The notes under the pieces: generated by a model
The model's database searches: none
What the model was told of the DNA's origin: nothing
The model's input: the letters and a program-made list of their open reading frames with translations, nothing else
Shown: positions 4,958 to 37,777 of the stretch, piece after piece
Position numbering within the stretch: position 1 is the stretch's first letter
How the letters are laid out: every line of letters starts with the position of its first letter
Made by a program: the position numbers and the translations under genes
Source: a virus
Lineage: Duplodnaviria > Heunggongvirae > Uroviricota > Caudoviricetes
Strand: one strand, 5' to 3'
IMG/VR virus record: IMGVR_UViG_2778261515_000019
Coordinates: 1-38,450 of that record
Length of the DNA: 38,450 bases

Positions 4958-5232
4958 GGTTTCCCCGCGATATCCCCACTTTAGAAGATGTATCCCCGTC
5001 ACCGTCCCCGCGTAAAATCCCCGTTTTGGAAGCAAAATCCCCCGGATTAGGGTAGTTTCCCCGCGATATCCCCGCGTAAAATCCCCGGTATTAGATGCGT
5101 ATTTTTATGTAAGTATATGATTTTAAATGCTTTCCCCGTGGTGTCCCCGTATCATCCCCACGTTATCCCCGACCTGTCCCCGTGGTATCCCTTCCCCGTC
5201 CCTTTCCCGTCCCCGTTTCAAAGTGGGGAAAC
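4958..5232. repeat. Iteron-like array of about 17 TCCCC(G) motifs, many spaced 10 to 11 bp
   Basis: Repeated units TTCCCCGCGATATCCCC and CCCCGCGTAAAATCCCC each occur twice; run TTTCCCCGTGGTGTCCCCGTATCATCCCCACGTTATCCCCGACCTGTCCCCGTGG; array bounded by GGTTTCCCC ... GGGGAAACC. Confidence 0.65.
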
Positions 5233-6666: not shown

Positions 6667-7518
6667 ATGAATACTGTTAAAACTATGAATACTGCACCGA
6701 CTTTCTTTGCTTCTCCGGTAGCTGCAAACGAAGATTATTCCGATGTTCGAATGACTTTGCGTGAAATTTCGGAATTTATTGGGGTACGTTTTGATAATAT
6801 CGAACGTAGTTTACATCGCCTTGTTAATCAAGGTGTTGTGAAACTCCCTCCAATGGAGGAAGTTAAAAACCACAGAAACCAGACAGTTAAAGATTATGTT
6901 TTTTCCGGTAAGCAAGGGCGATTGGATTCCATTGTTCTTATTGCTCAAAACGTACCTGAAATGACTCGTAAATTAGTAGAGCGTTGGGATTATCTCGAAA
7001 ATGAACTTTTAAAGAAAGAAGAAGAGAATAAAAGCCCGTTCCCAGATGCAAGCAAGATGACTAAGCTCGATTGGATGCGCGAAGCGGTTAAACTTGAAGA
7101 AGAAAAAGAACAACTGATTCAAGAAAAACAACAATTGGTTGATCTTCATATCCGTAAAGCCATCGACGCGCACAGTCTAACCCGCTTATTAGGCGAAAAA
7201 CGAGGCTCTACAAAGGTACAAATGATTCTGAAAGGGTTATGTACTGCTGGTGTTCTTGAGCGTCGTCTGGATGCTTCTGGTAAGCCTAACGGCTATGATC
7301 TGCTGCCTCCTGGCTATATGTTCGCTCGTATGTCGGCACACGGTCAGATCGAGTTCACTGCTGATGCTATTCCGCATCTCGTAAAACTCGGATTGCTTGA
7401 AGAAGAAAAGTCCGCAACTTTGAAATTGCCACAGCCGAATAACTCACGAGCAATCGTCAATAATACTGCTTTGCTGATTCGTCAGAATGCTGGATCACTG
7501 GAACACTTCGGACTGTGA
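6667..7518 (+). CDS. Phage regulatory protein (Rha/antirepressor-like N-terminal domain) with coiled-coil middle region
   Basis: RBS AAGGGGA; N-terminal MTLREISEFIGVRFDNIERSLHRLV resembles Rha-type winged-helix domain; ends with tandem stops TGATAA. Confidence 0.45.
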   Translation: MNTVKTMNTAPTFFASPVAANEDYSDVRMTLREISEFIGVRFDNIERSLHRLVNQGVVKLPPMEEVKNHRNQTVKDYVFSGKQGRLDSIVLIAQNVPEMTRKLVERWDYLENELLKKEEENKSPFPDASKMTKLDWMREAVKLEEEKEQLIQEKQQLVDLHIRKAIDAHSLTRLLGEKRGSTKVQMILKGLCTAGVLERRLDASGKPNGYDLLPPGYMFARMSAHGQIEFTADAIPHLVKLGLLEEEKSATLKLPQPNNSRAIVNNTALLIRQNAGSLEHFGL

Positions 7519-8549: not shown

Positions 8550-10454
8550 ATGAAACTGATTTCAAATAAGGCAAAATTAAAAAAGATTCTCAGAAATATC
8601 TCTGCTGCAATTCGCCCACCTAAAGCCATGAAACCTAGCGAATGGGTAGAGGCTAATGTAGTTGCAACCGATGGTGTTAAAGCCGGATCGCTAATTAAAT
8701 TGCATCCCTTCCAACGTGGAATGATGGACGCGATCACCGAAGACCGTAGAAAAATTGTGTTTAAATGTTCGGCGCAGTTGGGTAAGACCATGATTCTTAA
8801 CGGAATTATCTTCCATCGGATCGCGAGTAACCCTACGAATATTGGGGTGTTGCAAAGTAACGTTAGGGAACTAAATTCTTGGATCGCTGGTAAGGTGAAG
8901 CCAGTATTAGAGGCAACCCCAGAATTAAAGGCGATGATCACCGACAAATCAGATCGCAATGCCGTTAACAACTCATCGATTATTCAGCTTCGTAACGGAT
9001 CATTCATGTATTTCATGTCGTTGAATAGTCCGTCACATCTTCGCGGTAAAACACTCCCTTTGATTATTCTTGATGAAGTTGATGCGGCTGATGAGTCAGA
9101 CGAAGGGAACCCGATCCAGCTAGCGGAACAACGCGCAACCACTTTCGGGGAAGATGCAAGGATCGTAATTGCTTCCACTCCAACCGCTCGTGATGGGGCG
9201 ATTAACCAACAATGGGAACTCTCGGATAAGAGAAAATATCATGTCGTTTGTCAGCATTGCGGACACCGACACGTAATGGAATGGAGTAACGTTTATTTCG
9301 ATTGGCATACGATTAACGGTAAGTCATTACCTAACCCAGATACAGCCGTTTACCGCTGTCCTGCATGTGAAACCGACTGGACCGAAGGGGATCGCCTACG
9401 TGCTGTTGCTAAGGGAGAATGGGTCGCCACCGAACCAAATGCGGAAGTAATCGGTTTTCATGCTAACCGCCTTATGTCTCCGTTTAGTTCTATCCGTGCG
9501 TGTGTGGTGGACTTTGCTGATAGCTACGCGAATATGTCCCTGGCAACGTTCTACAATACAGTCCTCGGTGAAACCTTCGATGATCTTAACGAAGACCGCA
9601 CAGCCGACGAATTAGAAACGCTGAAAACTGATATTAGACTAGACAATATTCCTGATGATGTACTGGCTCTGGTTGGTGGAGTTGACCAGCAAAAAGACCG
9701 TCTGGAATCTACCTTGCTGGGTATTTCTCGTAAAGGGCTATGCGTAGTTGATCACCGATCATTCTATGATGTGAACTGCGAACGCCACGAATCGCCAGCA
9801 TATGACCAGCTTTACAACTTCCTGAAAGCTAAATTCTATACCCGATCCGGTGAACGAATCCCGATGTTATCTGCTTTCGTGGACTCATCGAACGGACGAG
9901 CTACAAACGTGATCTATCGATTCTGTAGTCGGTGGCAAAATCTAACCGCCATTAAAGGCGCAAGCAATGTTGATGCACCAATCCTTCCGGTAAAAGACAC
10001 AAGAACGGGTGGTTTTACCCTTAAAATTCTGGGCGTAAACAACCTTAAAACGATGATCCGTGAAATGATTAACCGGAATTTGAGAGATGGCGATCCTCAC
10101 ACTGTCTTCCAGATTGGTGACGTTCCTGATGACTATTGCGAGCAATTGCTTTCTGAACAGTTGAAACGGCAGGGTAATACCACACGTTGGGTAAAAGTTG
10201 GTCAGCAACGAAACGAGGCTCTCGACTGCCTGGCTTATTCCTATGCTGCTTCTCGCCATGTACTCAATAAAATGTCATGGGAAAAACTCGAAGCCATCAA
10301 AGATAGTTTGAACCGTGAACCAGAAGAATCCGTAGAAGCTCCTAAATCGCAATCTGACGAGAAAATAGAAGAAACTAAGCCAATCACACGACCACAACGT
10401 CAAAACATCGCCAGACGCCCAAATAGAGGCCGTGGCTGGGTAACATCGTTCTAA
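8550..10454 (+). CDS. terL: Terminase large subunit, GpA (lambda A) family
   Basis: 634 aa; motifs LHPFQRGMMDAI, ILDEVD, NTVLGETF, IKGAS, RNEALDC align with lambda gpA as recalled; start of long plus-strand morphogenesis operon. Confidence 0.85.
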   Translation: MKLISNKAKLKKILRNISAAIRPPKAMKPSEWVEANVVATDGVKAGSLIKLHPFQRGMMDAITEDRRKIVFKCSAQLGKTMILNGIIFHRIASNPTNIGVLQSNVRELNSWIAGKVKPVLEATPELKAMITDKSDRNAVNNSSIIQLRNGSFMYFMSLNSPSHLRGKTLPLIILDEVDAADESDEGNPIQLAEQRATTFGEDARIVIASTPTARDGAINQQWELSDKRKYHVVCQHCGHRHVMEWSNVYFDWHTINGKSLPNPDTAVYRCPACETDWTEGDRLRAVAKGEWVATEPNAEVIGFHANRLMSPFSSIRACVVDFADSYANMSLATFYNTVLGETFDDLNEDRTADELETLKTDIRLDNIPDDVLALVGGVDQQKDRLESTLLGISRKGLCVVDHRSFYDVNCERHESPAYDQLYNFLKAKFYTRSGERIPMLSAFVDSSNGRATNVIYRFCSRWQNLTAIKGASNVDAPILPVKDTRTGGFTLKILGVNNLKTMIREMINRNLRDGDPHTVFQIGDVPDDYCEQLLSEQLKRQGNTTRWVKVGQQRNEALDCLAYSYAASRHVLNKMSWEKLEAIKDSLNREPEESVEAPKSQSDEKIEETKPITRPQRQNIARRPNRGRGWVTSF

Positions 10455-11031: not shown

Positions 11032-12543
11032 ATGTTTAATCTTTTTCGACGCAATAAGGCGGTAGAAACTCCAGTTAAAACTAATCACCGCCAGCAACAA
11101 CAAAAAATCTTTATCGACAAACAAGTAGAAAAATTCCAGAAAGATTTGTCTAAGCGTTCTTTGGGCTTAGTTGGTGATCGCATTGATGGATCGCTTCAAC
11201 AAGATACTATCACAGGAACCTTCAATAAGGCTCTCAAATCGAACGGTAAACGCCTTTATGATCAGGGTCGTACTCTGGCTATAAACAATGCTGTAGGTAA
11301 GCGATACAAGCAGTATATCGTTGACCAAGTTGTTGGTACGGGGCTTGATCCGAAGCCGTCAATCGTTAAATCAAATGGCAAACTTGACACCGCACTGAAT
11401 AAGCAGATCGAGAATGCTTTCTGGAAGTGGGCGCAGAGTGCTAAACGCTTCTCTCGCAACGGTCGCTTTAACTTCCGTGAAATGCTGGCAATGGCAGAAT
11501 CTGAACGTGTTCAGGGTGGAGAATGCTTCATCGTTTTAACCAAAGAAAACAATGAGTTACAAGTTTCTATTCTGTCTGCTGATAGGTGCGACTGGTCGCT
11601 TAGTCGTGAAATAAGCAAAGACCGCGCTATCTATCAGGGGATCGAGTATGACGTAGAAACAATGCGCCCTGTTGCATACTGGTTTAGAAAAATCAATCTA
11701 CTGACTCAGACCTACACTGGCGAAAATTATCGCGTAGATGCTTCGCAAGTGTGTCATTACTATCAGCCCTTGTGCGCCGAGAGTTTGCGCGGCGTGACCG
11801 ACTTCCTACCAGTGATTAAGGATATTGCGCATCAAGAAGCGTTCCGCGAAGCTGTACTGGTCCAGAAACGAATTTCAGCTAGTAGCATGGCGTTCATCGA
11901 GCGTCCGAAAGATTCTGGTGACGATTTTGATACTGGTGAAGATGATGAACAATATCAAGCGCCGGAAGTTATTCACGATTTCGCGCCAGGTACTATTCAG
12001 GAATTACCGGAAGGGGCAACGATCAAGAGTATTCAATCCACGCAAAGCGGCGATGATTTCAATTCCTTTAACGCTGGTATGTTCACTAGCATAGCAATGG
12101 GTCTTGGCGTGTTCAATCAGGGCTTAACTGGTGATACTAGCCAAATCAACTACAGCGCCGCGCGTTTCGGTGAACTACTTCAACGTAACCGTGTTAAATC
12201 GCTACAAAACAAATTGATTGAAACAGTGGTATTGCCAATTTTTGAAGCATATCTACGCCATTATTCCGCGCGTGGTATTGTTCCGATTCGTATTACTGCA
12301 ATCCCGCATATTATCGAGAACACTACTATTATTCGTCCGCGTTTTGAGTCCGTCGATGTTATTAAAGATGTGAACGCTGATATTGCTTTAATTGATAAAG
12401 GACTTAAATCACGTACTGCTGTTATTTTGGAACGTGGCGACGATCCAGAAAAGGTATTTTCAGAGATCAGGTCTGAATCCAGTGCACTAAATATTATCGT
12501 TAATGGCGAGGGTGAAGAAAAAAATTCCCCAGCCGATCCCTAA
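11032..12543 (+). CDS. Portal protein (lambda gpB-like)
   Basis: 503 aa immediately after terL and connector gene; size and position typical of portal. Confidence 0.75.
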   Translation: MFNLFRRNKAVETPVKTNHRQQQQKIFIDKQVEKFQKDLSKRSLGLVGDRIDGSLQQDTITGTFNKALKSNGKRLYDQGRTLAINNAVGKRYKQYIVDQVVGTGLDPKPSIVKSNGKLDTALNKQIENAFWKWAQSAKRFSRNGRFNFREMLAMAESERVQGGECFIVLTKENNELQVSILSADRCDWSLSREISKDRAIYQGIEYDVETMRPVAYWFRKINLLTQTYTGENYRVDASQVCHYYQPLCAESLRGVTDFLPVIKDIAHQEAFREAVLVQKRISASSMAFIERPKDSGDDFDTGEDDEQYQAPEVIHDFAPGTIQELPEGATIKSIQSTQSGDDFNSFNAGMFTSIAMGLGVFNQGLTGDTSQINYSAARFGELLQRNRVKSLQNKLIETVVLPIFEAYLRHYSARGIVPIRITAIPHIIENTTIIRPRFESVDVIKDVNADIALIDKGLKSRTAVILERGDDPEKVFSEIRSESSALNIIVNGEGEEKNSPADP

Positions 12544-12588: not shown

Positions 12589-14598
12589 ATGCTTAAATTT
12601 CGCCGCGATCTTAACGGTTACGGTGGAGTTATTAATGAAGGGCATAACGATCAATACGAATTTGAAATTGCTTTCTCAAGTACACAGCCTTATCAGCGCC
12701 AATTTTGGGATGAGCAAAATCAAGAAATGGTGGTATTAGATGAAATTCTGGTACATACACCGGAAGCGGTTGATCTGTCTCGTCTGAATAATAACGCTCC
12801 GTTGCTGTTCAATCATAATTTCGATAATCACATTGGTGTAGTCTGCGACGCTCGAATCGATGCGGATAACGTAGGCCGTGCTCTGGTTAAATTCTCTAAG
12901 CATGGCACTTTGGCTAATGATATTCGCAATAAAGTCATTGAAGGTACGATGGAAAAAATTTCTGTCGGTTATGACATTAAAGAATATCACATCGACTACA
13001 CCAAAGGGCAATTGATTGTTACTAAGTGGGCGCCTTTTGAAATTTCATTTGTGACGGTTCCCGCAGACGATTCGGTCGGTTTAAATCGCTCTCTAAATAC
13101 TATCACAGTTAATTTGGGGGCTAAACGAGATATGACTAAAGAACAAATCGAAGAAATCAAAGAAGAACAAGAATCAGCTCAGGTTGAAGAAACTCCGGTA
13201 GAAGAAAATAAAGAATCGGAAGTTGAAGAAACTCAAGAGCGCCAAGTTGAAGAGAATAAAGAAGATGAAAATCTCGAAGACGGAAAAGACGCTAAACATC
13301 CTGAAAGTGTTGATGATGATAGTTCAACTGTTCGGGAAACAGAAGAAGTAAAAGAAGAACGTGAAGCCGCTCCGGTTGAAGAAGAAAAAACCGAAGAAGT
13401 GGCTGAACGTTCCGAAGAAGACGAAGAAGAAATCCGAGCAATTGCGCGGGAACTAAATATTGATGACTCTGAATTAGCACGCGCATTGGCAATTAAAGAC
13501 ATGACGCCGGAAGCATTCCGCACTAAGGCACTAAATAATCTCGTCAATGCTCAACGTAATAACGAACAAATTAAGGACTCTAAAATGGAAAAAACTTTTG
13601 ACCTGAACAACGTAATTCGCTCTCTGGTAGATGGTGCTGCTCTGGGTGCTAACGAAGCTGAATATTCCGCTATGGCTGCTGGTGCTGCAATGCAGCGTGG
13701 TCGTGCTGCTCGCGGTGGCTCTGTATTCGTTCCGGCTGCTGCTCTGCGTGCTGCTTCCGAAGGTAACACCAAAGCTACTCTGACCGCTGTAACCGACGAA
13801 AAACTGCTGACTGAATCCTACATCGAAATGCTGCTTCCTGCTTCGTGTCTGGGTCGTCTGGGCGTGACCGTCCTGTCTGGTCTGAATGCTCCGATTGCTG
13901 TACCGAAAATGACTGCTTCCAGCGTTGATGCTTTCGGTTTCGTTGATGAAAACGGTGCTGCACCGGAAAGCAAAGCTGAATTTACAAACGTGAAAATGGC
14001 TCCGAAAACTTTTGCTGGTGGCAACCCGATCAGCCGTCAGTCTCTGAAAACTGTTCCGAATATTGCTACCCTGATCACTGATCACATTAACAAAGCTGTT
14101 CGTATCAAACTGGAACAACTGATTCTGTCTGACAAAGCTAACGAACGTGGTCCGAAAGGTCTGGTTAAGCAACTGGTAGACGCTAACCGCGTTACTAAGA
14201 AAACTGCTTTCTCTTACAAAGACTTCCTGAAAGAAATTGCAGCACTGACCGACGCTGGCGTTCCTGCTCAGGCGATCAAGTTCGCTATGAGTGGTGCAAC
14301 TGCTGCTGAACTGGAATCTACCCCGAAATCCGATCGTGGTGACGCTCAAGGCTTCATTATGGAAAACGGCAAACTGGCTGGTTACGATGTAGTTACTTCT
14401 GGCGTTATTCCGGCAGACCACATCGTTCTGGGTGACTTCTCCGGTATCATGATCGGTGAATGGGGTGGTCTGGAACTGGATATGGACGACACCACTTACC
14501 GCGCACAGTCTGCTATCGTTCCGCGTATCTGGGTAGACCTGGACTTCACCGTAGTTCAGCCGGAAGCTCTGAAAGTTCTGAAAATGGGCGAAGAGTGA
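12589..14598 (+). CDS. Prohead protease - acidic linker - scaffold-like coiled coil - HK97-fold major capsid protein, fused in one 669-aa ORF
   Basis: N-terminus has U35-type prohead protease motifs PLLFNHNFDNHIGVV and ISVGY; residues about 180-300 Glu-rich; C-terminal about 300 aa Ala/Gly-rich with capsid-like LSDKANERGPKGLV; optimal codons. Confidence 0.7.
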   Translation: MLKFRRDLNGYGGVINEGHNDQYEFEIAFSSTQPYQRQFWDEQNQEMVVLDEILVHTPEAVDLSRLNNNAPLLFNHNFDNHIGVVCDARIDADNVGRALVKFSKHGTLANDIRNKVIEGTMEKISVGYDIKEYHIDYTKGQLIVTKWAPFEISFVTVPADDSVGLNRSLNTITVNLGAKRDMTKEQIEEIKEEQESAQVEETPVEENKESEVEETQERQVEENKEDENLEDGKDAKHPESVDDDSSTVRETEEVKEEREAAPVEEEKTEEVAERSEEDEEEIRAIARELNIDDSELARALAIKDMTPEAFRTKALNNLVNAQRNNEQIKDSKMEKTFDLNNVIRSLVDGAALGANEAEYSAMAAGAAMQRGRAARGGSVFVPAAALRAASEGNTKATLTAVTDEKLLTESYIEMLLPASCLGRLGVTVLSGLNAPIAVPKMTASSVDAFGFVDENGAAPESKAEFTNVKMAPKTFAGGNPISRQSLKTVPNIATLITDHINKAVRIKLEQLILSDKANERGPKGLVKQLVDANRVTKKTAFSYKDFLKEIAALTDAGVPAQAIKFAMSGATAAELESTPKSDRGDAQGFIMENGKLAGYDVVTSGVIPADHIVLGDFSGIMIGEWGGLELDMDDTTYRAQSAIVPRIWVDLDFTVVQPEALKVLKMGEE

Positions 14599-14685
14599 AA
14601 TAACGAAGAATTGCCGGAAGAAATTCCGGTAGTTACGGCGAAAGCCACAGCTAAAAAGGTGGGACGTCCACCGAAAGCAAAATAA
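14599..14685 (+). other. In-frame 28-codon extension after the capsid TGA stop (candidate readthrough peptide NNEELPEEIPVVTAKATAKKVGRPPKAK)
   Basis: Frame open from TGA (14596-98) to TAA (14683-85); 24-nt block GTTACGGCGAAAGCCACAGCTAAA identical to the block after the tail-tube gene. Confidence 0.3.
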
Positions 14686-14690
14686 TAATT

Positions 14691-14716
14691 AGCCCTGCCT
14701 AACGGTGGGGCTTTTT
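14691..14716 (+). terminator. Rho-independent terminator (copy 1 of duplicated module)
   Basis: AGCCCTGCC-TAAC-GGTGGGGCT followed by TTTTTTG. Confidence 0.7.
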
Positions 14717-14747
14717 TGTATGTAAATACTCCATAAAGGGGGTAACT

Positions 14748-15038
14748 ATGTTCAAATTATCAGAATCACAATTAAATCGAATGTTTAAAAGTGCTCCTGT
14801 ATTTTCGGTGGAAGGTGGTAAATCAATTCGTGCTTATCATGAAATTACTACTACCGACGAACAAGGGGTAATGACAGAGACAGAATTTCTATTTTGTCGT
14901 GAGGGAGACTTAAAGCAAGGTGATATTGTCATTGTAGAAAATCAGCGTTTCAAAGTTCAATACGTTAAGCGCAATGGTGATAATACTTCTGATTGCTTTA
15001 TTACTCTGGCAGGGGGTACACATGCTCGCTACCGTTAA
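14748..15038 (+). CDS. Head-tail connector/adaptor-position protein
   Basis: RBS AAGGGGGT; 96 aa; position after capsid gene. Confidence 0.45.
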   Translation: MFKLSESQLNRMFKSAPVFSVEGGKSIRAYHEITTTDEQGVMTETEFLFCREGDLKQGDIVIVENQRFKVQYVKRNGDNTSDCFITLAGGTHARYR

Positions 15039-15444
15039 TAATATGCCGAGACTGAAAATCAAACGCGCCTTGCAAGATATTATCGAACAAGATTTAGGTC
15101 TGGCTTTAAACGTAGAACAAACTCAGCAAGGCTTTAGTGATGACGTGGTTTGTTGGATCACTGGAATGAATGAGACTTACACGCGTGTTCGTGGTGGTAA
15201 TGCAATGCAAGCTGAATGCGTTATCGAAATGCAATTATATTCTCAGATTCATGAAACCAAAATTCATGAGGGTATTTGCCAGATAATCCAGATTCAGCCG
15301 GATAACCCACGTTTTAAAGATTTGGGCTTCGCTATTTCAGATATCACTCCAGTAGCTTCTAATACCGATTATGACGATGATTCTAGTGATGGTGGTATCG
15401 TTGGGACACTTAGCCTTAAATTTTCTTATGTAGCGCGTTTTTAA
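15022..15444 (+). CDS. Head closure / tail completion-position protein (start at ATG 15022 overlapping upstream gene by 17 nt)
   Basis: RBS AGGGGGT 5 nt before ATG 15022; track ORF starts further upstream at 14974. Confidence 0.4.
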   Translation: MLATVNNMPRLKIKRALQDIIEQDLGLALNVEQTQQGFSDDVVCWITGMNETYTRVRGGNAMQAECVIEMQLYSQIHETKIHEGICQIIQIQPDNPRFKDLGFAISDITPVASNTDYDDDSSDGGIVGTLSLKFSYVARF

Positions 15445-16364: not shown

Positions 16365-19300
16365 ATGCAGTCGATCCAATTTAAACGCACACAAACGGCT
16401 GGTAAAAAACCAACGCCGGAACAATTATCACAGGGTGAAATCGCCTTACAGTTGGCGGATCATGTGATTTACACCAAAGACAAAAATAATAACGTAGTCC
16501 AAATTAGTGTTTCTCCAGAAAAACACGCTGAACTGAATACGAAAGTAGACAATAACAAAACTAGCACTGACCGTGTTATTGCTTCCAACAAACAAGAAGC
16601 CGCTAATAATCTGGCTAGTGCTAAAGCTGAACTGAATCAGACTATTACCACGAAAGATACAGCGACCAATAAGCGCATTGATGCTACTAACACCACGGTT
16701 AGTAACTTAACCCAGACAGTCACGGCAAATAAAACCGATGCTGATACTAAGATCAATAACCTTACGGGGACAGTTGCATCTAACAAATCAGCTATAGAAA
16801 CTACTGTAGCAAATAATAAACGAGATGCGGACAATAAAATCGCAGCTTTAACCACGACGGTTAATGACAATAACACCGCGATTAACAACAAAGTTAATAC
16901 CACTAACACCAACGTTAGCAACTTAACTAAAACTGTTACTGCAAATAAAACCGATGCAGATAACAAAATTTCTAGCTTAACTAGCACGGTTGCAGCTAAC
17001 AAAACAGCGATTGAAAAGGTCGTTTCCGACAACAAGAAAGATGCTGATACGAAGATCACCAACTTAACCAACACTGTTAATAGCAACCACACCGCCATTA
17101 ACAACAAGGTTGACCAGAATAAATCAGCTACTGATTCAGCGATTGCAGCCGCTAACCGTCGAATTGATGGTATTGAAGGTAGCAACGATGCTCTTTACAT
17201 CAAGAAGAATACCAACACTAAGCACGGCGGGTATCTGTTAAGCAAGACAGCTAACTATCTGGAAGACCAGACATCACGAGATCTTAACTACTTTGGTGCT
17301 TTCCGTACCAATGGTCTTGATGGACTCATGGATCTAACTCTTAACGTTCCTCACTCTGCCGGTAAAGCTCACGGTCGCGGATTTACTTTCCGTTATGCGT
17401 CTGGTGGATCTCGTGTTGAAACCTATGGTTTTGATAGAGATGGACAGAAGAACTTTAGCTATAAGATGTATCACGAAGGTGATAAGCCGACTCCTGGCGA
17501 GATTGGTGCATACACCAAAGCCGAAGTTGATAAGATGTTTGTTAAAAACGTCGCTATGTCTGTTCCCAATTCTAGCGAAAACGTATCTGCATATTTCAAA
17601 TTGGCAACCGCAACAATTCCACAAAACGGGCGTAGTGTGTTTTTCCGTATTCATGGTGGTGATGGTTACAACGTTGCGGCATATGACCAAGTTGATGTAG
17701 TAGAAATTCTTCTCCGTAGTGGTAACGATAGACCTAAAGGACTTAACGTAGTTGCATATCGTCGAAATACCGTCAAAGATTTTGATGTATTTGCCGTCAA
17801 TACATCCGGTGATAACTATGACATTTATGTGAAATATCAGCGTTACACTGATAACGTTATTGTAGAATATGGGAAATCTGTTAATGTAAGTCTGACGGTT
17901 TATGATACGCCGGAAGCCACGTTAATTAAACCTTCTGTTGGTGTTATTGGCGGTCGCGCGGTAACTCTATTCAATACAGAAAACAAACGAGGTGTGTTGA
18001 GTTTTGACGATAACACACAAAATAGTTATGATATTGTTCACTTGAGTAATGATAGGGGTACTGGACGAAAATATATTCGTAAATTCCGTAGTAACTATAA
18101 TGAAATGATCTGGCACGAGACGGTTCAAGGCGCCAGCTATCGTCTGGCTACTGGTGCAACTGATGCTCAGGAGATTCTAACCGTTGAATCTGTTAGCTCA
18201 ATTGCTGGAACTCATAAAGGTAATATTACTTCTGGCCGTATGCTGTTAAATGGCGGTAGTAATGTTATTACCTTGCGGCGTCCTGCTGGTCAATCCAACC
18301 ATATTGCGTTTCAAGATAATCGGACTGGAGATATTACCCGTCAAGGGTGGATCGGTTATGCCAATGCTGATACTAACGTTTTTGAATGGTATAGTGATGT
18401 AGGTGGCAGTTCTATTCGTCAACATATCGACGGACAGATCGAACTTGCAACCGGTAACACAAAACGCGTTTATACTAACGCTCAATTCATCTCAATGAAT
18501 AGCGACGCCTACCGTATGCTCTATGGTAATTATGGTGCATTCTGGCGTAATGACGGCGTTAAAGTTTATCTTCTTTCTACTGCCGAAAATGATAAATTGG
18601 GCGGATGGAATACTTATCGTCCATTCATTTATGATTTAACTTCCGGTAACGTTCAATTAGGCGGTGATGGTAACGAAGATGCATTAACGTTAGAACGTGC
18701 TTCTCGTGCCGCTCGCTTTAGTAATGACGTTTACATTAAGAAAGGGCATTTGACTTTCGACGCTGGGCGATTAAATTCCCGCGATTACTTCCGGTTTAAC
18801 CATTGGGGTGATAGCAATAACGGTCGCGATAACATCCTACAGATTGAAGACAGTAAGGGCGCACATTTTACCACTGAACGTACTTTATCAACTGGTGCGA
18901 TTAAAACTAAATTCTTCGGTGATTTGGAATCTGCTGGTCAAATTAAATGGGGTAAAGGGACCGCCGCATCTACGTTTACTCTACGTGTATGGGGTAACGA
19001 TAGTCGTAAACAAATATTTGAATGTGGCGATGAAAGTGGGTGGCATTGGTATACCCAACGACCTGGCGGTCCAGGTACTACAGCAATAGAATTTGCTATC
19101 AACGGTACTGTTAAGCCTCAAGCAATTCACAGTGGCGGTAATATCACTATCAACGGTGCTGATATTGAGTTTCGTCGCAGTGGCAATAAGCATTTGTGGT
19201 TTAGAGATCCGAACGGTTTAGAGTTAGGCTTGATGTACTGCGATGATGCTGGTGCTATTCGCTTCCGTGGTCAGAAACAAGCCCAGGCGTGGAAATTTGC

Positions 19301-19979
19301 AGATAAAATGATCCAGTTGGAATCTGGCACTGTATCCGGTGGCGGTAATGGCCTGATTCGTGGTGAAGTTGCTGGCGGTAGTTGGGCTAGCTGGCGTGAC
19401 CGTGCTGCTGGCCTTATGGTTGGGTGTCCTCAATCCACCAACTCGGCACATAACGTATGGAAAGCGACGCATTGGGGTAAATATCACATTGCAGCAATGG
19501 CTGTACATGTTCCTGATGGTACTATTACCAATGCTTTAGCTCGCCTAAACGTTCATGACGCCAACTTTGACTTTAACGCTGCGGGTGATTTTAGCGCAAG
19601 TCGTAATGGTAGCTTTAACGATGTTTACATTCGTTCGGACCGTCGTCTGAAAGTTAATCTGGAAGAATTAAAAGATGATGCTTTAGAGAAAGTAAACTCC
19701 CTGAAAGTCTACTCATACGATAAAGTTAAGTCTCTTAAAGATCGTAGTGTGATTAAACGCGAAGTCGGTATTATTGCTCAGGATCTGGAAGAAGTATTGC
19801 CGGAAGCAGTAGGTATTCAATCCACCGAAGATCCAGAAAATCCAGAAGCAATTAAGACTATTTCTAACTCTGCTGTTAATGCCTTGATTATTAAAGCTAT
19901 TCAGGAAATGGACGCCAAATATCAAGCTAAGATTGAAGCATTGACTAAAGAGATTGCCGAACTCAAAGCAACTAAATAA
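16365..19979 (+). CDS. Long tail fiber with N-terminal Thr/Asn-rich tandem repeats and C-terminal intramolecular-chaperone-like domain
   Basis: 1204 aa; two ~72-aa repeats NxSNLTxTVTANKTDADxKI...; C-terminal SDRRLKVNLEEL...VYSYD...GIIAQDLEEVLPEAV resembles autoproteolytic chaperone domains of fiber/endosialidase proteins. Confidence 0.8.
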   Translation: MQSIQFKRTQTAGKKPTPEQLSQGEIALQLADHVIYTKDKNNNVVQISVSPEKHAELNTKVDNNKTSTDRVIASNKQEAANNLASAKAELNQTITTKDTATNKRIDATNTTVSNLTQTVTANKTDADTKINNLTGTVASNKSAIETTVANNKRDADNKIAALTTTVNDNNTAINNKVNTTNTNVSNLTKTVTANKTDADNKISSLTSTVAANKTAIEKVVSDNKKDADTKITNLTNTVNSNHTAINNKVDQNKSATDSAIAAANRRIDGIEGSNDALYIKKNTNTKHGGYLLSKTANYLEDQTSRDLNYFGAFRTNGLDGLMDLTLNVPHSAGKAHGRGFTFRYASGGSRVETYGFDRDGQKNFSYKMYHEGDKPTPGEIGAYTKAEVDKMFVKNVAMSVPNSSENVSAYFKLATATIPQNGRSVFFRIHGGDGYNVAAYDQVDVVEILLRSGNDRPKGLNVVAYRRNTVKDFDVFAVNTSGDNYDIYVKYQRYTDNVIVEYGKSVNVSLTVYDTPEATLIKPSVGVIGGRAVTLFNTENKRGVLSFDDNTQNSYDIVHLSNDRGTGRKYIRKFRSNYNEMIWHETVQGASYRLATGATDAQEILTVESVSSIAGTHKGNITSGRMLLNGGSNVITLRRPAGQSNHIAFQDNRTGDITRQGWIGYANADTNVFEWYSDVGGSSIRQHIDGQIELATGNTKRVYTNAQFISMNSDAYRMLYGNYGAFWRNDGVKVYLLSTAENDKLGGWNTYRPFIYDLTSGNVQLGGDGNEDALTLERASRAARFSNDVYIKKGHLTFDAGRLNSRDYFRFNHWGDSNNGRDNILQIEDSKGAHFTTERTLSTGAIKTKFFGDLESAGQIKWGKGTAASTFTLRVWGNDSRKQIFECGDESGWHWYTQRPGGPGTTAIEFAINGTVKPQAIHSGGNITINGADIEFRRSGNKHLWFRDPNGLELGLMYCDDAGAIRFRGQKQAQAWKFADKMIQLESGTVSGGGNGLIRGEVAGGSWASWRDRAAGLMVGCPQSTNSAHNVWKATHWGKYHIAAMAVHVPDGTITNALARLNVHDANFDFNAAGDFSASRNGSFNDVYIRSDRRLKVNLEELKDDALEKVNSLKVYSYDKVKSLKDRSVIKREVGIIAQDLEEVLPEAVGIQSTEDPENPEAIKTISNSAVNALIIKAIQEMDAKYQAKIEALTKEIAELKATK

Positions 19980-20035: not shown

Positions 20036-20509
20036 ATGTCTCAACAATTCAAAGATATTTTTACTGGTGGTTTGGTAAGTCTGTTCTATCACGCTGATAC
20101 CACTAACACCGCTCTCAACCATGAGGGGTATGAAGAAATTAAAGAGTGTGCTGGTTTTCCTGAAACTGGTATCGAGCGCGGTACTGTAGAAGTTAAATCC
20201 TTCTCTTCTCAGTATAACCGTAAACTGGTAGGGAAGCTGAACGTTCCTGATCTGACTCTTACGGTGAATTACATCCCCGGGGATAGTGTCCACGAAAAAT
20301 TGATCAAAGCTGCCGAAGACGGCACAAGAGTACAAATCAAAATAGAGTATTATGTTGACGCCGGAAAACAGACTGGTATTCGCACCGCTTTCAACGGCTT
20401 CATTTCTAAAGTTGCTATGAACGGTGGCGATGAAGAAGTGGTAACTAAAGAGTTTACCTTTGCAGTGGACGGCAAACCGCTGAAACAGGAAATCTTCACT
20501 GCCGGATGA
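20036..20509 (+). CDS. Major tail tube protein
   Basis: 157 aa; strong RBS AAGGGGT; followed by terminator module as for capsid gene; tube-like motif DLTLTVNY ... FTFAVDG. Confidence 0.6.
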   Translation: MSQQFKDIFTGGLVSLFYHADTTNTALNHEGYEEIKECAGFPETGIERGTVEVKSFSSQYNRKLVGKLNVPDLTLTVNYIPGDSVHEKLIKAAEDGTRVQIKIEYYVDAGKQTGIRTAFNGFISKVAMNGGDEEVVTKEFTFAVDGKPLKQEIFTAG

Positions 20510-20629
20510 ACTAACGAAGAACTTCCCGAACCGGAACCACAGCCGGAACATGAAGCGGTGGTGATTCCAGAAGTAGAAGAAGTTACGGCGAAAGCCACAG
20601 CTAAACGAAGCCGCAAGGCTAAAGATTAA
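20510..20629 (+). other. In-frame 39-codon extension after the tail-tube TGA stop (TNEELPEPEPQPEHEAVVIPEVEEVTAKATAKRSRKAKD)
   Basis: Frame open from TGA (20507-09) to TAA (20627-29); shares AACGAAGAA(T/C)T.CC.GAA start and the identical 24-nt block with the capsid extension; indels relative to that copy are multiples of 3. Confidence 0.3.
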
Positions 20630-20634
20630 TTATA

Positions 20635-20663
20635 AGCCCTGCCTTAATGGTGGGGCTTTTTTA
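20635..20663 (+). terminator. Rho-independent terminator (copy 2 of duplicated module)
   Basis: AGCCCTGCCTT-AAT-GGTGGGGCT followed by TTTTTTATT. Confidence 0.7.
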
Positions 20664-20678
20664 TTGGAGCAATAAAAA

Positions 20679-21185
20679 ATGGCGAATGTCGTTAATAAGC
20701 CCGGCTGGGTCGGGTCATCTGCTGTTTCTGTAACTAGTCAACGATGGATGACCGCAGCAATGAACGCATTAAAGGTTAGTCGCCCAGCTAACATGAGTGC
20801 GATGTGTGGTCGTGGTATGGATACGGTTGTAGCTACTGCTGCGTGGTCTACTTCATTGGGTAATAACTGGGGTGTAACTGCTTCAAACTATCCAGTAACT
20901 GACATGCGCGGTAAAGGATCTATGGAGAACCCCGAAAACGTTGGCGTAGGGCGTCTGATTGGCGTTATCGTTGGTCAATTCAATGGTGGTACTCCTACTA
21001 TGGCTGTATATCTCCAGAACGGTAGAGCGGGGAATATAACCGTTAATTTGGGTGGTGCTGCTGTCACTGTTCCTTATAACAGTATGCAAAGTGGTTTTCA
21101 TTACTACTGGTTAAGCAATCCTCCGGCTGCTTTCCTTACCAACATTAAGAAGACTGGCACTAAGCAGACTTTGAAAATCTCTTAA
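20679..21185 (+). CDS. Tail-associated protein of unknown role
   Basis: 168 aa; between tail tube and chaperone genes. Confidence 0.45.
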   Translation: MANVVNKPGWVGSSAVSVTSQRWMTAAMNALKVSRPANMSAMCGRGMDTVVATAAWSTSLGNNWGVTASNYPVTDMRGKGSMENPENVGVGRLIGVIVGQFNGGTPTMAVYLQNGRAGNITVNLGGAAVTVPYNSMQSGFHYYWLSNPPAAFLTNIKKTGTKQTLKIS

Positions 21186-37140: not shown

Positions 37141-37386
37141 TTAATATTTCTTTCCAGTTAGTTTTGCATCACGTTTATTAATATCCTCGATATGACTCCA
37201 TACACACGCAGTAATAAAGTCGTCATCGTCACCAACTCCGGCAACCTGTGCTAATTCAGTACACAGTTGATTTAAAGAAGGTGCAACGGCAGCACGCTTG
37301 ACACTATCACCCTGTACATATTGATCCGCATTAGCAGCACCAACCAAACCCAGAGCAAGAACGATACCAGCGATAATCTTTTTCAT
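37141..37386 (-). CDS. Small secreted protein (signal peptide, 81 aa)
   Basis: MKKIIAGIVLALGLVGAANA signal peptide with AxA cleavage motif; RBS GAGGA. Confidence 0.5.
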   Translation of the reverse strand: MKKIIAGIVLALGLVGAANADQYVQGDSVKRAAVAPSLNQLCTELAQVAGVGDDDDFITACVWSHIEDINKRDAKLTGKKY

Positions 37387-37415
37387 AATAGAATCCTCTT
37401 TGTTATTTGAATTAA

Positions 37416-37730
37416 TTAGTCTTTGAAGTCGATGGTCACGTTACCTTTAAGGGCAAGTTCCATTAAACAACTGCGCTCATCCTTCATGCTCTTACACAAT
37501 TTCATCCCGTAAACAACGAGATTATCTTTCTCTTTCCAATATTTTTGTTTATCTGCATAAACCTCGCTATATTCACTGTCTTTGAGTGAGAGAGCATTTT
37601 CTAACTGGCTAATCTCCTGATTCAGATCCTTAATCTCGGCCTTATTTGACCGGATAGTCTCTTGATGTTGAGTATCGGAATAGTCATACCCACAAACAAA
37701 TCCACCGATGCCACCAACACACAGAAACAA
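37416..37730 (-). CDS. Coiled-coil protein; a signal-peptide/TM-like N-terminus (MKKTIYAIIVSVC) lies 1 nt out of frame upstream (ATG at 37755)
   Basis: Track ORF starts at TTG; upstream ATG with RBS GAGGATTCAATTATG encodes 13 signal-like residues then shifts frame inside a GTGTGT tract. Confidence 0.4.
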   Translation of the reverse strand: MFLCVGGIGGFVCGYDYSDTQHQETIRSNKAEIKDLNQEISQLENALSLKDSEYSEVYADKQKYWKEKDNLVVYGMKLCKSMKDERSCLMELALKGNVTIDFKD

Positions 37731-37777
37731 TAATTGCGTAGATAGTCTTTTTCATAATTGAATCCTCTTTGAATGAA

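What the first reader, a model, noticed from the sequence alone, without database searches (positions are those of the whole stretch)
20507..20663. Second copy of the TGA-extension-terminator module after the major tail tube gene
The tail-tube ORF also ends in TGA followed in-frame by 39 codons ending in TAA before a near-identical terminator. It shares the first ~21 nt after the stop (17 identical) and the exact 24-nt block GTTACGGCGAAAGCCACAGCTAAA with the capsid module. Both length differences between copies (33 nt and 6 nt) are multiples of 3, as expected under coding constraint. Parallel C-terminal extension of both capsid and tail proteins has a precedent in the +1 frameshifts of Listeria phage PSA (recalled from literature), but here the mechanism would be stop-codon readthrough.
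Basis: partly seen in the sequence, partly recalled or inferred. Interest (0 to 1): 0.8.

Follow-up and report, generated by a model that had tools for sequence, protein, structure and literature searches.

The report
Leaky-stop tail extension on tube protein
In this E. coli prophage the tail-tube gene, like the capsid gene, ends in a leaky TGA stop followed by a short in-frame coding stretch that relatives keep intact, so a few copies of each protein probably carry an extra flexible, positively charged tail, a trick known from the RNA phage Qbeta but which I could not find described for tailed DNA phages.

Summary
The lambda-gpV-like tube gene (20036-20509) ends in TGA-A. Next come 39 in-frame codons, TAA-TTA-TAA, and an intrinsic terminator. 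The capsid gene ends with a paralogous cassette that shares an exact 24-nt block.

Comparative evidence favours translation by UGA readthrough:
- All 114 cassette instances retrieved (45 distinct sequences) keep TGA+A.
- All have zero frame-0 stops, against 1-7 in the other frames.
- All lengths are multiples of three.
- Synonymous changes are enriched only in frame 0.
- The cassette sits in frame behind three gene contexts, including a capsid allele only 39% identical.
- In one genome it keeps its frame with a different terminator.
- Distant tube homologues (Edwardsiella, Proteus, Salmonella) encode similar short tails contiguously.
- In the window, 33 of 37 long ORFs end in TAA. TGA ends only these two genes and one other.

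The extension is predicted to be disordered: an acidic, proline-rich spacer with a basic tip.

No extended protein has been demonstrated. The 24-nt block has no synonymous differences between the two copies, and small hairpins show a few compensatory changes, so an added RNA-level role is possible.

Verdict: a probable new variant of programmed readthrough, in a prophage lineage with no cultured close relative. Confidence about 0.7.

The parts
20036..20506 (+). Major tail tube gene, 157 codons, lambda gpV N-domain fold
   Evidence: Borderline Pfam hits to Phage_TTP_11 and Phage_TTP_12. An AF2 model of a close homologue matches the lambda tube protein V structures 8k36_A and 7t2e_A at E 3e-7, probability 1.00. 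PGAP names it 'phage tail tube protein' in E. coli genomes.
20507..20510 (+). Leaky stop signal TGA plus a +4 A
   Evidence: All 45 distinct cassette variants begin TGAA. In the window 33 of 37 long ORFs end in TAA and only three end in TGA. UGA followed by A is the context most prone to misreading by tRNA-Trp in E. coli (Engelberg-Kulka 1981, as cited in PMC5289835).
20510..20581 (+). Readthrough extension, part 1: acidic, proline-rich spacer (TNEELPEPEPQPEHEAVVIPEVEE)
   Evidence: The frame is kept through indels of 6, 9 and 15 nt and through segment swaps in relatives. AF2 pLDDT is 35-47, which indicates disorder.
20582..20605 (+). 24-nt block shared exactly with the capsid cassette (VTAKATAK). 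It contains the mini-hairpin GGC-GAAA-GCC at 20587-20596.
   Evidence: The mini-hairpin pairs in 15 of 15 variants, with one double-sided change and two wobble changes.
20606..20626 (+). Readthrough extension, part 3: basic tip (RSRKAKD)
   Evidence: Variants are RSRKAKD, RGRKAKN, RGRKAKD and RSRKAKN.
20627..20635 (+). Tight terminal stop TAA-TTA-TAA
   Evidence: Every variant ends in TAA with a second in-frame TAA within two codons.
20634..20662 (+). Intrinsic terminator (10-bp stem, loop TTAAT, six T)
   Evidence: The stem is identical to the capsid terminator. It is replaceable: L155 carries a different terminator after the same extension.
12589..14595 (+). Prohead protease-scaffold-major capsid fusion gene, host of the paralogous cassette
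   Evidence: Pfam Peptidase_S78 and Phage_capsid.
14596..14688 (+). Capsid copy of the cassette: TGA-A, 28 codons (NNEELPEEIPVVTAKATAKKVGRPPKAK), TAA TAA
   Evidence: It is conserved in 32 of 32 close relatives, with two unrelated spacer types and three basic-tip types. There is an 11-bp GAAA-loop hairpin at 14609-14634, z -5.2.
14691..14717 (+). Capsid-gene intrinsic terminator

Best explanation
This is a programmed UGA-readthrough cassette. Most ribosomes terminate at the TGA-A that ends the 157-residue tube protein. A minority insert an amino acid and continue for 39 codons to a tight TAA-TTA-TAA stop 4 nt before the terminator. The inserted residue is most likely Trp, from near-cognate tRNA-Trp competing with RF2. 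The product is a minor tube-protein isoform with a disordered tail of about 40 residues, made of an acidic, proline-rich spacer and a basic tip (VTAKATAKRSRKAKD). The tail starts exactly where lambda gpV continues into its outward-facing Ig-like domain, so it should project from the outside of the tube. The capsid gene carries a paralogous cassette, so both head and tail would display a few copies of a similar basic peptide. These may serve weak electrostatic binding to cell-surface or other polyanions. What is shown: conservation of TGA-A, of the frame and of codon-wise indels; a frame-0 excess of synonymous changes; portability of the cassette; contiguous tails in distant homologues; and predicted disorder. 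What is inferred: that readthrough actually occurs, the residue inserted, the stoichiometry, the outward orientation on the capsid, and the function.
For: (1) All 114 cassette instances in the fetched loci (45 distinct sequences) have TGA+A. None has a frame-0 stop, against 1-7 stops in frames 1 and 2, and all lengths are multiples of three: 114, 120, 123 and 129 nt for tube, 90-141 nt for capsid. (2) Among 122 substitutions on minimum-spanning-tree edges, frame 0 has 46 synonymous changes. Frames 1 and 2 have 31 and 30, and about 29 are expected. Third codon positions change 55 times, against 28 and 39 for the first and second. In the capsid GRPPKAK tip, four of five codon differences are synonymous. 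(3) Unrelated spacer sequences (NNEELPEEIPVV, TPVEPSEPSPDLGEENLIPEPEEESQ, TFEEQPQPIQDEPTV) keep the same acidic, proline-rich character. (4) The cassette sits in frame behind three gene contexts, including a capsid fusion protein only 39% identical, with the junction at GAC TGA ACT. In L155 it keeps its frame and TAA with a different terminator. (5) Distant tube homologues encode short proline-containing tails with basic ends and no intervening stop. One example is Edwardsiella ...YHMNVIPEAVAAKEK, compared with the window's EHEAVVIPEVEEVTAKATAK. (6) Of 37 long ORFs in the window, 33 end in TAA. TGA ends only the capsid gene, the tube gene and one other gene, where it is followed by T and a tandem stop. 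Highly expressed genes normally prefer UAA, and UGA-A is the leakiest context for tRNA-Trp (PMC5289835; PMC10570021). (7) The tube core matches lambda gpV residues 1-154, whose C-terminal domain protrudes outward (PMC8718954). The extension is predicted to be disordered.
Against: No protein, peptide or ribosome-footprint evidence exists, and no cultured close relative is known. No relative has a sense codon in place of TGA; the one 'fused' database protein is a code-4 gene-calling artefact. Purifying selection on the peptide is weak, with dN/dS roughly 0.5. Within the 24-nt block, 6 of 7 variable sites are non-synonymous, and the two paralogous copies show no synonymous difference. That looks like nucleotide-level constraint or gene conversion rather than protein constraint. 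The tube extension is dispensable: 12 of 35 related prophages carry a tube allele that ends in TAA with no extension. No conserved readthrough-stimulating structure follows the tube TGA (z -0.3).
Confidence: 0.7

Rival explanations
1. The region is an untranslated, structured 3' UTR. It could be an mRNA-stabilising or processing element, or a 3'-UTR-derived small RNA whose seed is the conserved 24-nt block, followed by an AU-rich stretch and the terminator. On this view the open frame is incidental.
For: The 24-nt block is identical between the paralogous copies with no synonymous differences, while the flanks are unalignable, and its third codon positions are almost invariant. The extensions fold better than synonymous recodings of the same peptide: capsid z -2.6 to -3.6, tube z -1.2 to -2.05. 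Compensatory or wobble-compatible changes occur in three small hairpins, with 22 of 500 and 32 of 500 shuffles reaching the observed score. An AU-rich stretch plus a terminator resembles Hfq-type sRNA 3' ends.
Against: It cannot explain zero frame-0 stops in 45 variants, codon-multiple indels, or the frame being kept relative to three different upstream genes. It also cannot explain the exclusive use of TGA-A in a TAA-dominated genome, the synonymous excess in frame 0 only, or the contiguous tails in distant homologues. There is no Rfam match. The hairpins are not conserved across spacer types, and the tube copy is only weakly structured. An RNA role could still coexist with translation.
Confidence: 0.13
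2. The extension is a decaying remnant. An ancestral longer C-terminal tail was cut off by a nonsense mutation and the downstream sequence is drifting.
For: Distant homologues have contiguous tails. The peptide evolves fast. An extension-less tube allele is viable.
Against: A relic would accumulate stops and frameshifts, and none is seen in 45 variants across two paralogous sites and three gene contexts. TGA is never replaced by TAA or TAG despite the genome's TAA preference. The ORF always ends in a tandem TAA.
Confidence: 0.05
3. The extension is translated, but by another route: an independently initiated micro-ORF, selenocysteine insertion at UGA, or a suppressor tRNA or altered genetic code.
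For: A hairpin starts 10 nt after the capsid UGA in the short variant, a spacing reminiscent of bacterial SECIS elements. In-frame GTG codons exist inside the tube extension.
Against: No conserved start codon or Shine-Dalgarno sequence is present: TTG becomes TCG in L049, and the long capsid variant has no in-frame ATG and no start candidate shared across variants. Conservation starts immediately at the stop. The hairpin loop is GAAA, not the GGUC-type SelB site, the hairpin is absent from the tube copy, and neither region gives a SECIS match even at E<=10. The only tRNA call in the window is a dubious 91-nt tRNA-Gln lying antisense inside an ORF. No in-frame TGA occurs inside genes.
Confidence: 0.04

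Closest known systems
Coliphage Qbeta coat protein / A1 readthrough protein (Weiner & Weber 1973; cited in PMC8310308)
   Same: The host is E. coli. The major capsid gene ends in a single leaky UGA. From memory, in Qbeta it is followed by A and a Thr codon (UGA ACA), matching TGA ACT here. The extension opens with a flexible proline-rich linker, and the extended form is a minor virion component decoded by near-cognate tRNA-Trp.
   Different: Qbeta is an ssRNA levivirus. Its extension is a folded domain of about 196 residues that is essential for infection. Here the extensions are 28-45 disordered residues, occur on two genes of a dsDNA siphovirus-type prophage, and the tube copy at least is dispensable.
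Dual capsid and tail recoding in Listeria phages PSA, A118 and A500 and Lactobacillus phage A2 (PMC5009743)
   Same: Both the major capsid and the major tail gene yield a second, C-terminally extended product by translational recoding at the 3' end of the gene.
   Different: Those phages use +1 or -1 frameshifting on slippery sites, with the extension in another frame. Here the extension is in the zero frame behind a stop codon. Their hosts are Gram-positive, and several of their extensions are Ig-like domains rather than a short charged tail.
[quoted passage not shown]
   Same: An optional module is attached at the C-terminus of the tube-forming domain, protrudes outside the tube, and is non-essential or only modulatory. 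The window's tube core aligns to gpV residues 1-154.
   Different: The SPP1 extension comes from a frameshift (3:1 ratio) and is an FN3 domain. The lambda domain is encoded contiguously. Here the module is a disordered peptide behind a UGA.
Tube proteins of related enterobacterial prophages (Salmonella, Providencia, Proteus, Edwardsiella; P0011-P0033)
   Same: They belong to the same protein family (51-63% identity). They have short proline-containing C-terminal tails with basic ends (SRK, ARK, AKEK, KEK), and the Edwardsiella tail is alignable with the window's extension.
   Different: Their tails are 6-20 residues long and are translated constitutively, with no intervening stop.

Membership tests
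Programmed stop-codon readthrough (Qbeta A1 type) | Leaky stop codon in a readthrough-prone context, conserved among relatives | tested here: met
   TGA followed by A in 45 of 45 distinct variants. TGA is rare in this genome. The UGA-A context is described in the literature.
Programmed stop-codon readthrough (Qbeta A1 type) | Downstream in-frame ORF evolving as coding sequence | tested here: met
   No frame-0 stops and codon-multiple indels. Synonymous excess in frame 0 only. Frame kept behind three genes.
Programmed stop-codon readthrough (Qbeta A1 type) | Extended protein detected and present in virions | not testable with these tools
   No cultured relative and no proteomic data found (literature searches).
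Programmed stop-codon readthrough (Qbeta A1 type) | Cis-acting 3' RNA stimulator (optional in bacteria) | tested here: inconclusive
   The capsid short variant has an 11-bp hairpin 10 nt after UGA (z -5.2) with one compensatory change. The tube copy has only a weak, non-conserved hairpin.
Capsid/tail C-terminal extension by programmed frameshift (PSA, A118, A500, A2, SPP1, T7 10B) | Extension encoded in the +1 or -1 frame and reached at a slippery site | tested here: not met
   The extension is in frame 0 directly after the stop, and frames 1 and 2 carry 1-7 stops.
Capsid/tail C-terminal extension by programmed frameshift (PSA, A118, A500, A2, SPP1, T7 10B) | Both the major capsid and the major tail gene carry an extension | tested here: met
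   However, 12 of 35 relatives have the extension on the capsid gene only.
Ig-like/FN3 decoration domains on phage structural proteins | Extension folds as an Ig-like beta-sandwich | tested here: not met
   The extension is 39 residues long with pLDDT 35-47, no secondary structure and no Pfam domain.
Selenocysteine insertion (bacterial SECIS) | SelB-binding hairpin with a GGUC-type loop about 11 nt after UGA | tested here: not met
   The tube copy has no such hairpin, the capsid hairpin loop is GAAA, and neither region gives a SECIS match in Rfam at E<=10.
Stop-codon reassignment in phages (TGA recoded genome-wide) | In-frame TGA scattered inside genes, plus a suppressor tRNA | tested here: not met
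   Long ORFs are intact under table 11. TGA occurs only at three gene ends. No suppressor tRNA was found.
AT-hook motif (PF02178) | Score at or above the Pfam gathering threshold (17.4 bits) | tested here: not met
   The capsid GRPPKAK tips score 14.2-14.7 bits (E 0.03-0.04). The tube tip gives no hit.

The most novel reading that the evidence does not exclude
A portable 'TGA-A, spacer, basic tip, TAA-TAA' cassette lets a temperate E. coli siphovirus decorate both head and tail tube with a few copies of a surface-exposed cationic peptide by programmed UGA readthrough. This would be the first such case I am aware of in structural genes of a tailed dsDNA phage. Because UGA readthrough in E. coli varies with temperature, cAMP and tRNA-Trp level (PMC10570021), the amount of decoration would report the physiology of the producing cell. 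The same RNA may also act as a structured 3' element.
Probability: 0.5. Interest if true: 0.8.

Novelty: new variant of a known kind. Interest (0 to 1): 0.68.

Why it matters
Stop-codon readthrough is textbook for Qbeta and for eukaryotic RNA viruses. Tailed phages, by contrast, are known to extend capsid and tail proteins by frameshifting. A conserved, portable readthrough cassette on both major structural genes of an E. coli prophage would add a recoding mechanism to tailed-phage biology. The prophage region is present in 58 of 5426 complete E. coli genomes, and 22 of them carry the tube copy. The cassette would also expose a class of products that annotation pipelines miss, since PGAP ends both genes at TGA. 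It would provide a natural low-copy display system analogous to engineered lambda and T7 display. Finally, it would offer an easily testable model for context-dependent UGA decoding in wild E. coli.

Tried and rejected
- Megablast of both cassette regions against 50,697 phage records found nothing. By tblastn the only cultured relative is Escherichia phage DCP80 (tube 46%, capsid 43% identity), which lacks the in-frame extension.
- The one 'full-length fused' tube protein in the protein database (P0001) seemed to be a natural sense-codon variant. Its DNA has TGA, and the gene was called with a TGA=Trp code.
- A scan of 100,044 species-representative genomes with the terminator pattern found only three identical terminators behind unrelated genes in Mariprofundus, Halomonas and Salinibius, and no cassette.
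- A scan of IMG/VR with the 19-nt block core found it only in this prophage family, at the two known sites.
- Rfam gave no hit at gathering thresholds, and only sub-threshold terminator-like noise at E<=10.
- tRNA search found no suppressor.
- Selenocysteine insertion, an independent micro-ORF, genome-wide recoding and a decaying relic were each considered and rejected for the reasons given under the rival explanations.
- The imperfect hairpin 24 nt after the tube TGA was checked for covariation by eye. Its variants break pairs, so I do not claim it.
- Nine literature searches found no report of readthrough in capsid or tail genes of tailed phages (and the review read). The library is incomplete, so absence is not proof.

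Full report
**What is in the window.**
The window is a siphovirus-type E. coli prophage. It carries a lambda-family terminase (8550-10454) and portal (11032-12543). It also carries a fused prohead protease-scaffold-major capsid gene (12589-14598), a long fibre gene (16365-19979) and a 157-codon tube gene (20036-20509). An AlphaFold model of a close tube homologue matches the tube-forming domain of lambda gpV (8k36_A, 7t2e_A; E about 3e-7, probability 1.00) over residues 1-154. The capsid-to-tube region occurs in 58 of 5426 complete E. coli genomes, and the tube region in 22. No cultured phage is close: megablast finds nothing, and the best tblastn hit is Escherichia phage DCP80 at 43-46% identity.

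**Checking the observation.**
- TGA lies at 20507-20509, followed by 39 in-frame sense codons to TAA at 20627-20629.
- A strong terminator hairpin lies at 20634-20658 with a T-run (-17 kcal/mol, z -3.1).
- The capsid gene ends in TGA at 14596-14598, followed by 28 codons and TAA TAA.
- The 24-nt block occurs exactly twice, with zero chance expectation even allowing 3 mismatches.
- 17 of the first 21 nt after the two stops are identical.
- The only inaccuracy is the length differences. They are 39 nt and 6 nt (net 33), not 33 and 6, and both are multiples of three.

**Is the frame conserved in relatives?**
I retrieved tube ends from 35 IMG/VR loci and capsid ends from 80 loci. I added three complete E. 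coli genomes and 23 metagenome contigs anchored only on the terminator.
- All 23 tube loci of the close allele (82-97% identity) and all 32 close capsid loci have TGA followed by an open in-frame extension.
- Pooled, there are 114 cassette instances with 45 distinct sequences.
- Every instance begins TGAA.
- Every instance ends TAA, with a second in-frame TAA within two codons.
- In the 33 IMG/VR variants counted frame by frame, frame 0 has no stops and frames 1 and 2 have 1-7 each.
- Every length is a multiple of three: tube 114, 120, 123 and 129 nt; capsid 90, 132, 135, 138 and 141 nt.
- At least six separate indel or segment-swap events are implied.

The spacers fall into unrelated sequence types: NNEELPEEIPVV, T[NPS]VEPSEPSPDLGEENLIP..EEESQ, TNEELP(LI/LP)EPEPQPEHEAVV and TFEEQPQPIQDEPTV. 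All share an acidic, proline-rich composition. They are followed by V[TK]AKAT[AV]K[KR] and a basic tip (RSRKAKD, RGRKAKN, VGRPPKAK, QRKTKE or ERKTKAK), shuffled in mosaic combinations.

**Substitution pattern.**
I counted 122 substitutions on minimum-spanning-tree edges.
- In frame 0, 46 are synonymous.
- Read in frames 1 and 2, the same events give 31 and 30 synonymous changes.
- The random expectation is 23.6%, or about 29.
- Third codon positions change 55 times, against 28 for first and 39 for second positions.

This gives a dN/dS of roughly 0.5, which is weak purifying selection typical of a disordered linker. In the capsid GRPPKAK tip, four of five codon differences are synonymous.

**Portability of the cassette.**
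- Metagenome contig L175 encodes a protease-scaffold-capsid protein only 39% identical to the window's. It nevertheless ends ...GTT GAC TGA ACT CCT..., with the same long extension in frame.
- In E. coli E275a (L155) the tube extension keeps its frame and TAA, but is followed by the terminator normally found behind the extension-less tube allele.
- The reading frame, not the terminator, is therefore the conserved unit.
- The tube extension is facultative. Twelve related prophages carry a 58-60%-identical tube allele that ends TAA plus terminator, while still carrying the capsid cassette.

**Relatives with contiguous tails.**
No close relative replaces TGA with a sense codon. The single 'fused' 198-residue database protein is a TGA=Trp gene-calling artefact. 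More distant tube homologues at 51-63% identity do continue past the equivalent position without a stop, into short proline-containing tails with basic ends. These come from Salmonella, Providencia, Proteus and Edwardsiella. The Edwardsiella tail ...TPDAPLATYHMNVIPEAVAAKEK aligns with EHEAVVIPEVEEVTAKATAK.

**Stop-codon usage.**
Of 37 long ORFs in the window, 33 end in TAA, one in TAG and three in TGA. This count replaces one spurious antisense ORF with the tube gene. The three TGA genes are capsid, tube, and 6667-7518, where TGA is followed by T and an immediate second stop. Highly expressed bacterial genes prefer UAA. UGA followed by A is the context most prone to misreading by tRNA-Trp in E. 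coli (PMC5289835). Trp-tRNA-Trp competing with RF2 is the accepted mechanism of UGA readthrough (PMC10570021). Placing TGA-A on the two most abundant virion proteins is the opposite of what efficient termination would select.

**Mechanism and product.**
The best reading is that a minority of ribosomes read through UGA. The result is a tube isoform with a 40-residue tail that AlphaFold predicts to be disordered (pLDDT 35-47). The tail starts at the position where lambda gpV continues into its outward-pointing Ig-like domain (PMC8718954), so an external location is inferred. For the capsid, an external location is an inference by analogy with T7 10B display, which I recall from memory. The function is inferred from composition only; weak electrostatic adhesion is one candidate. 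The capsid tips give a sub-threshold AT-hook hit (14.2-14.7 bits against a 17.4 cutoff), and the tube tip gives none.

**Signs of RNA-level constraint.**
- The 24-nt block has no synonymous differences between the paralogous copies. Across variants, 6 of its 7 variable sites are non-synonymous.
- The block contains a GGC-GAAA-GCC mini-hairpin that pairs in 15 of 15 variants. One variant carries a double change (GGA-GAAA-TCC) and two carry wobble changes. 32 of 500 shuffles do as well.
- The short capsid variant has an 11-bp GAAA-loop hairpin 10 nt after UGA (z -5.2). It and a GGTGG/CCACC hairpin each show one compensatory change. 22 of 500 shuffles do as well.
- Native extensions fold better than synonymous recodings: capsid z -2.6 to -3.6, tube z -1.2 to -2.05.
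- These samples are small, and the tube copy is only weakly structured.

I treat an RNA role (stabiliser, readthrough stimulator or 3'-UTR sRNA) as a possible addition. As a sole explanation it is a weak rival, because it cannot account for the frame evidence.

**Other alternatives rejected.**
- Selenocysteine: there is no SECIS-like element in the tube copy, the capsid hairpin loop is GAAA, and Rfam gives no SECIS match.
- Suppressor tRNA or genome-wide recoding: no such tRNA, and no internal TGA.
- Independent micro-ORF: no conserved start codon, and conservation begins at the stop.
- Decaying relic: no disrupted copy among the 45 variants.

**Comparison with known systems.**
In mechanism this most resembles Qbeta coat/A1 readthrough. 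In outcome it most resembles the dual capsid-and-tail extensions of Listeria phages PSA, A118 and A500 and Lactobacillus phage A2, and the tube extension of SPP1 gp17.1*. All of those use frameshifting (PMC5009743; PMC8718954). It fails the defining frameshift and Ig-domain features of those families. It meets the sequence-level features of programmed readthrough. The protein-level feature could not be tested. My literature searches found no description of readthrough in capsid or tail genes of tailed phages, but the searchable library is incomplete.

**Verdict.**
It is a new variant of a known kind. Confidence in translation by readthrough is about 0.7, and interest is about 0.68.

Noticed in passing
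L001 (Escherichia phage DCP80) 6565-6700: The DCP80 capsid gene ends TAA ACC TAA, followed by a perfect 7-bp hairpin with a GNRA loop (GGAGAGA-GCAA-TCTCTCC) starting 7 nt after the first TAA. The -1 frame is open across the stop and encodes ...RKDSINLMERAISPMSLGAEALDAAPVKKSKSASG*, which ends shortly before the terminator. This may be a frameshift-accessed analogue of the same acidic-then-basic tail, with a possible A-AAG slip site. It is untested.
   Followed up: partly
L175 209-2240 (metagenome contig ERZ791574 NODE-3542): A protease-scaffold-capsid fusion only 39% identical to the window's carries the identical long extension cassette in frame, with the mosaic junction exactly at the TGA.
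   Followed up: yes
L155 8474-8680 (E. coli E275a, NZ_CP035865.1): The tube extension is followed by a different terminator (GCCATCCTTCGGGGTGGC), the one used by the extension-less tube allele. In this prophage the fibre gene is interrupted by IS2.
   Followed up: partly
window 14609-14634 and 14658-14672: The capsid extension contains an 11-bp GAAA-loop hairpin 10 nt after UGA, and a GGTGG/CCACC hairpin inside the GRPPKAK codons. Each shows one compensatory double change in relatives. The long capsid variant instead has a UUCCCCC/GGGGGAA hairpin whose loop differs at 4 of 5 positions in L154.
   Followed up: partly
window, all genes: There is an extreme TAA preference: 33 of 37 long ORFs end in TAA, many with a tandem stop.
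   Followed up: yes
L156 2700-2725, L157 1764-1790, L158 6432-6457: The exact 26-27-nt terminator AGCCCTGCCT(T)AACGGTGGGGCTTTTT also occurs behind unrelated genes in Mariprofundus, Halomonas and Salinibius genomes. This is probably convergence on a stable hairpin, but it is unexplained.
   Followed up: partly
window 16365-19979 and 20679-21185: A siphovirus-type prophage carries T4-like fibre parts: a 1204-residue fibre with a gp34 trimerisation domain and an S74 chaperone domain, placed between the head genes and the tube gene. A gp38-like adhesin N-terminal domain gene sits directly after the tube terminator.
   Followed up: no
window 15209-15299 (- strand): ARAGORN calls a 91-nt tRNA-Gln (anticodon UUG) antisense inside ORF 14974-15444. 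It is probably a false positive, and it is not a UGA suppressor.
   Followed up: no
window 4959-5148: There are three direct copies of GTTTCCCCGCGATATCCCC (two exact) spaced 96 and 75 nt apart in an intergenic region. They may be operator or iteron-like sites.
   Followed up: no
window 37347-37402 and 37716-37771 (- strand genes 37141-37386, 37416-37730): Two adjacent small minus-strand genes share a 56-nt stretch at 77% identity covering the ribosome-binding site and the first codons. They are paralogous small proteins, possibly with signal peptides.
   Followed up: no
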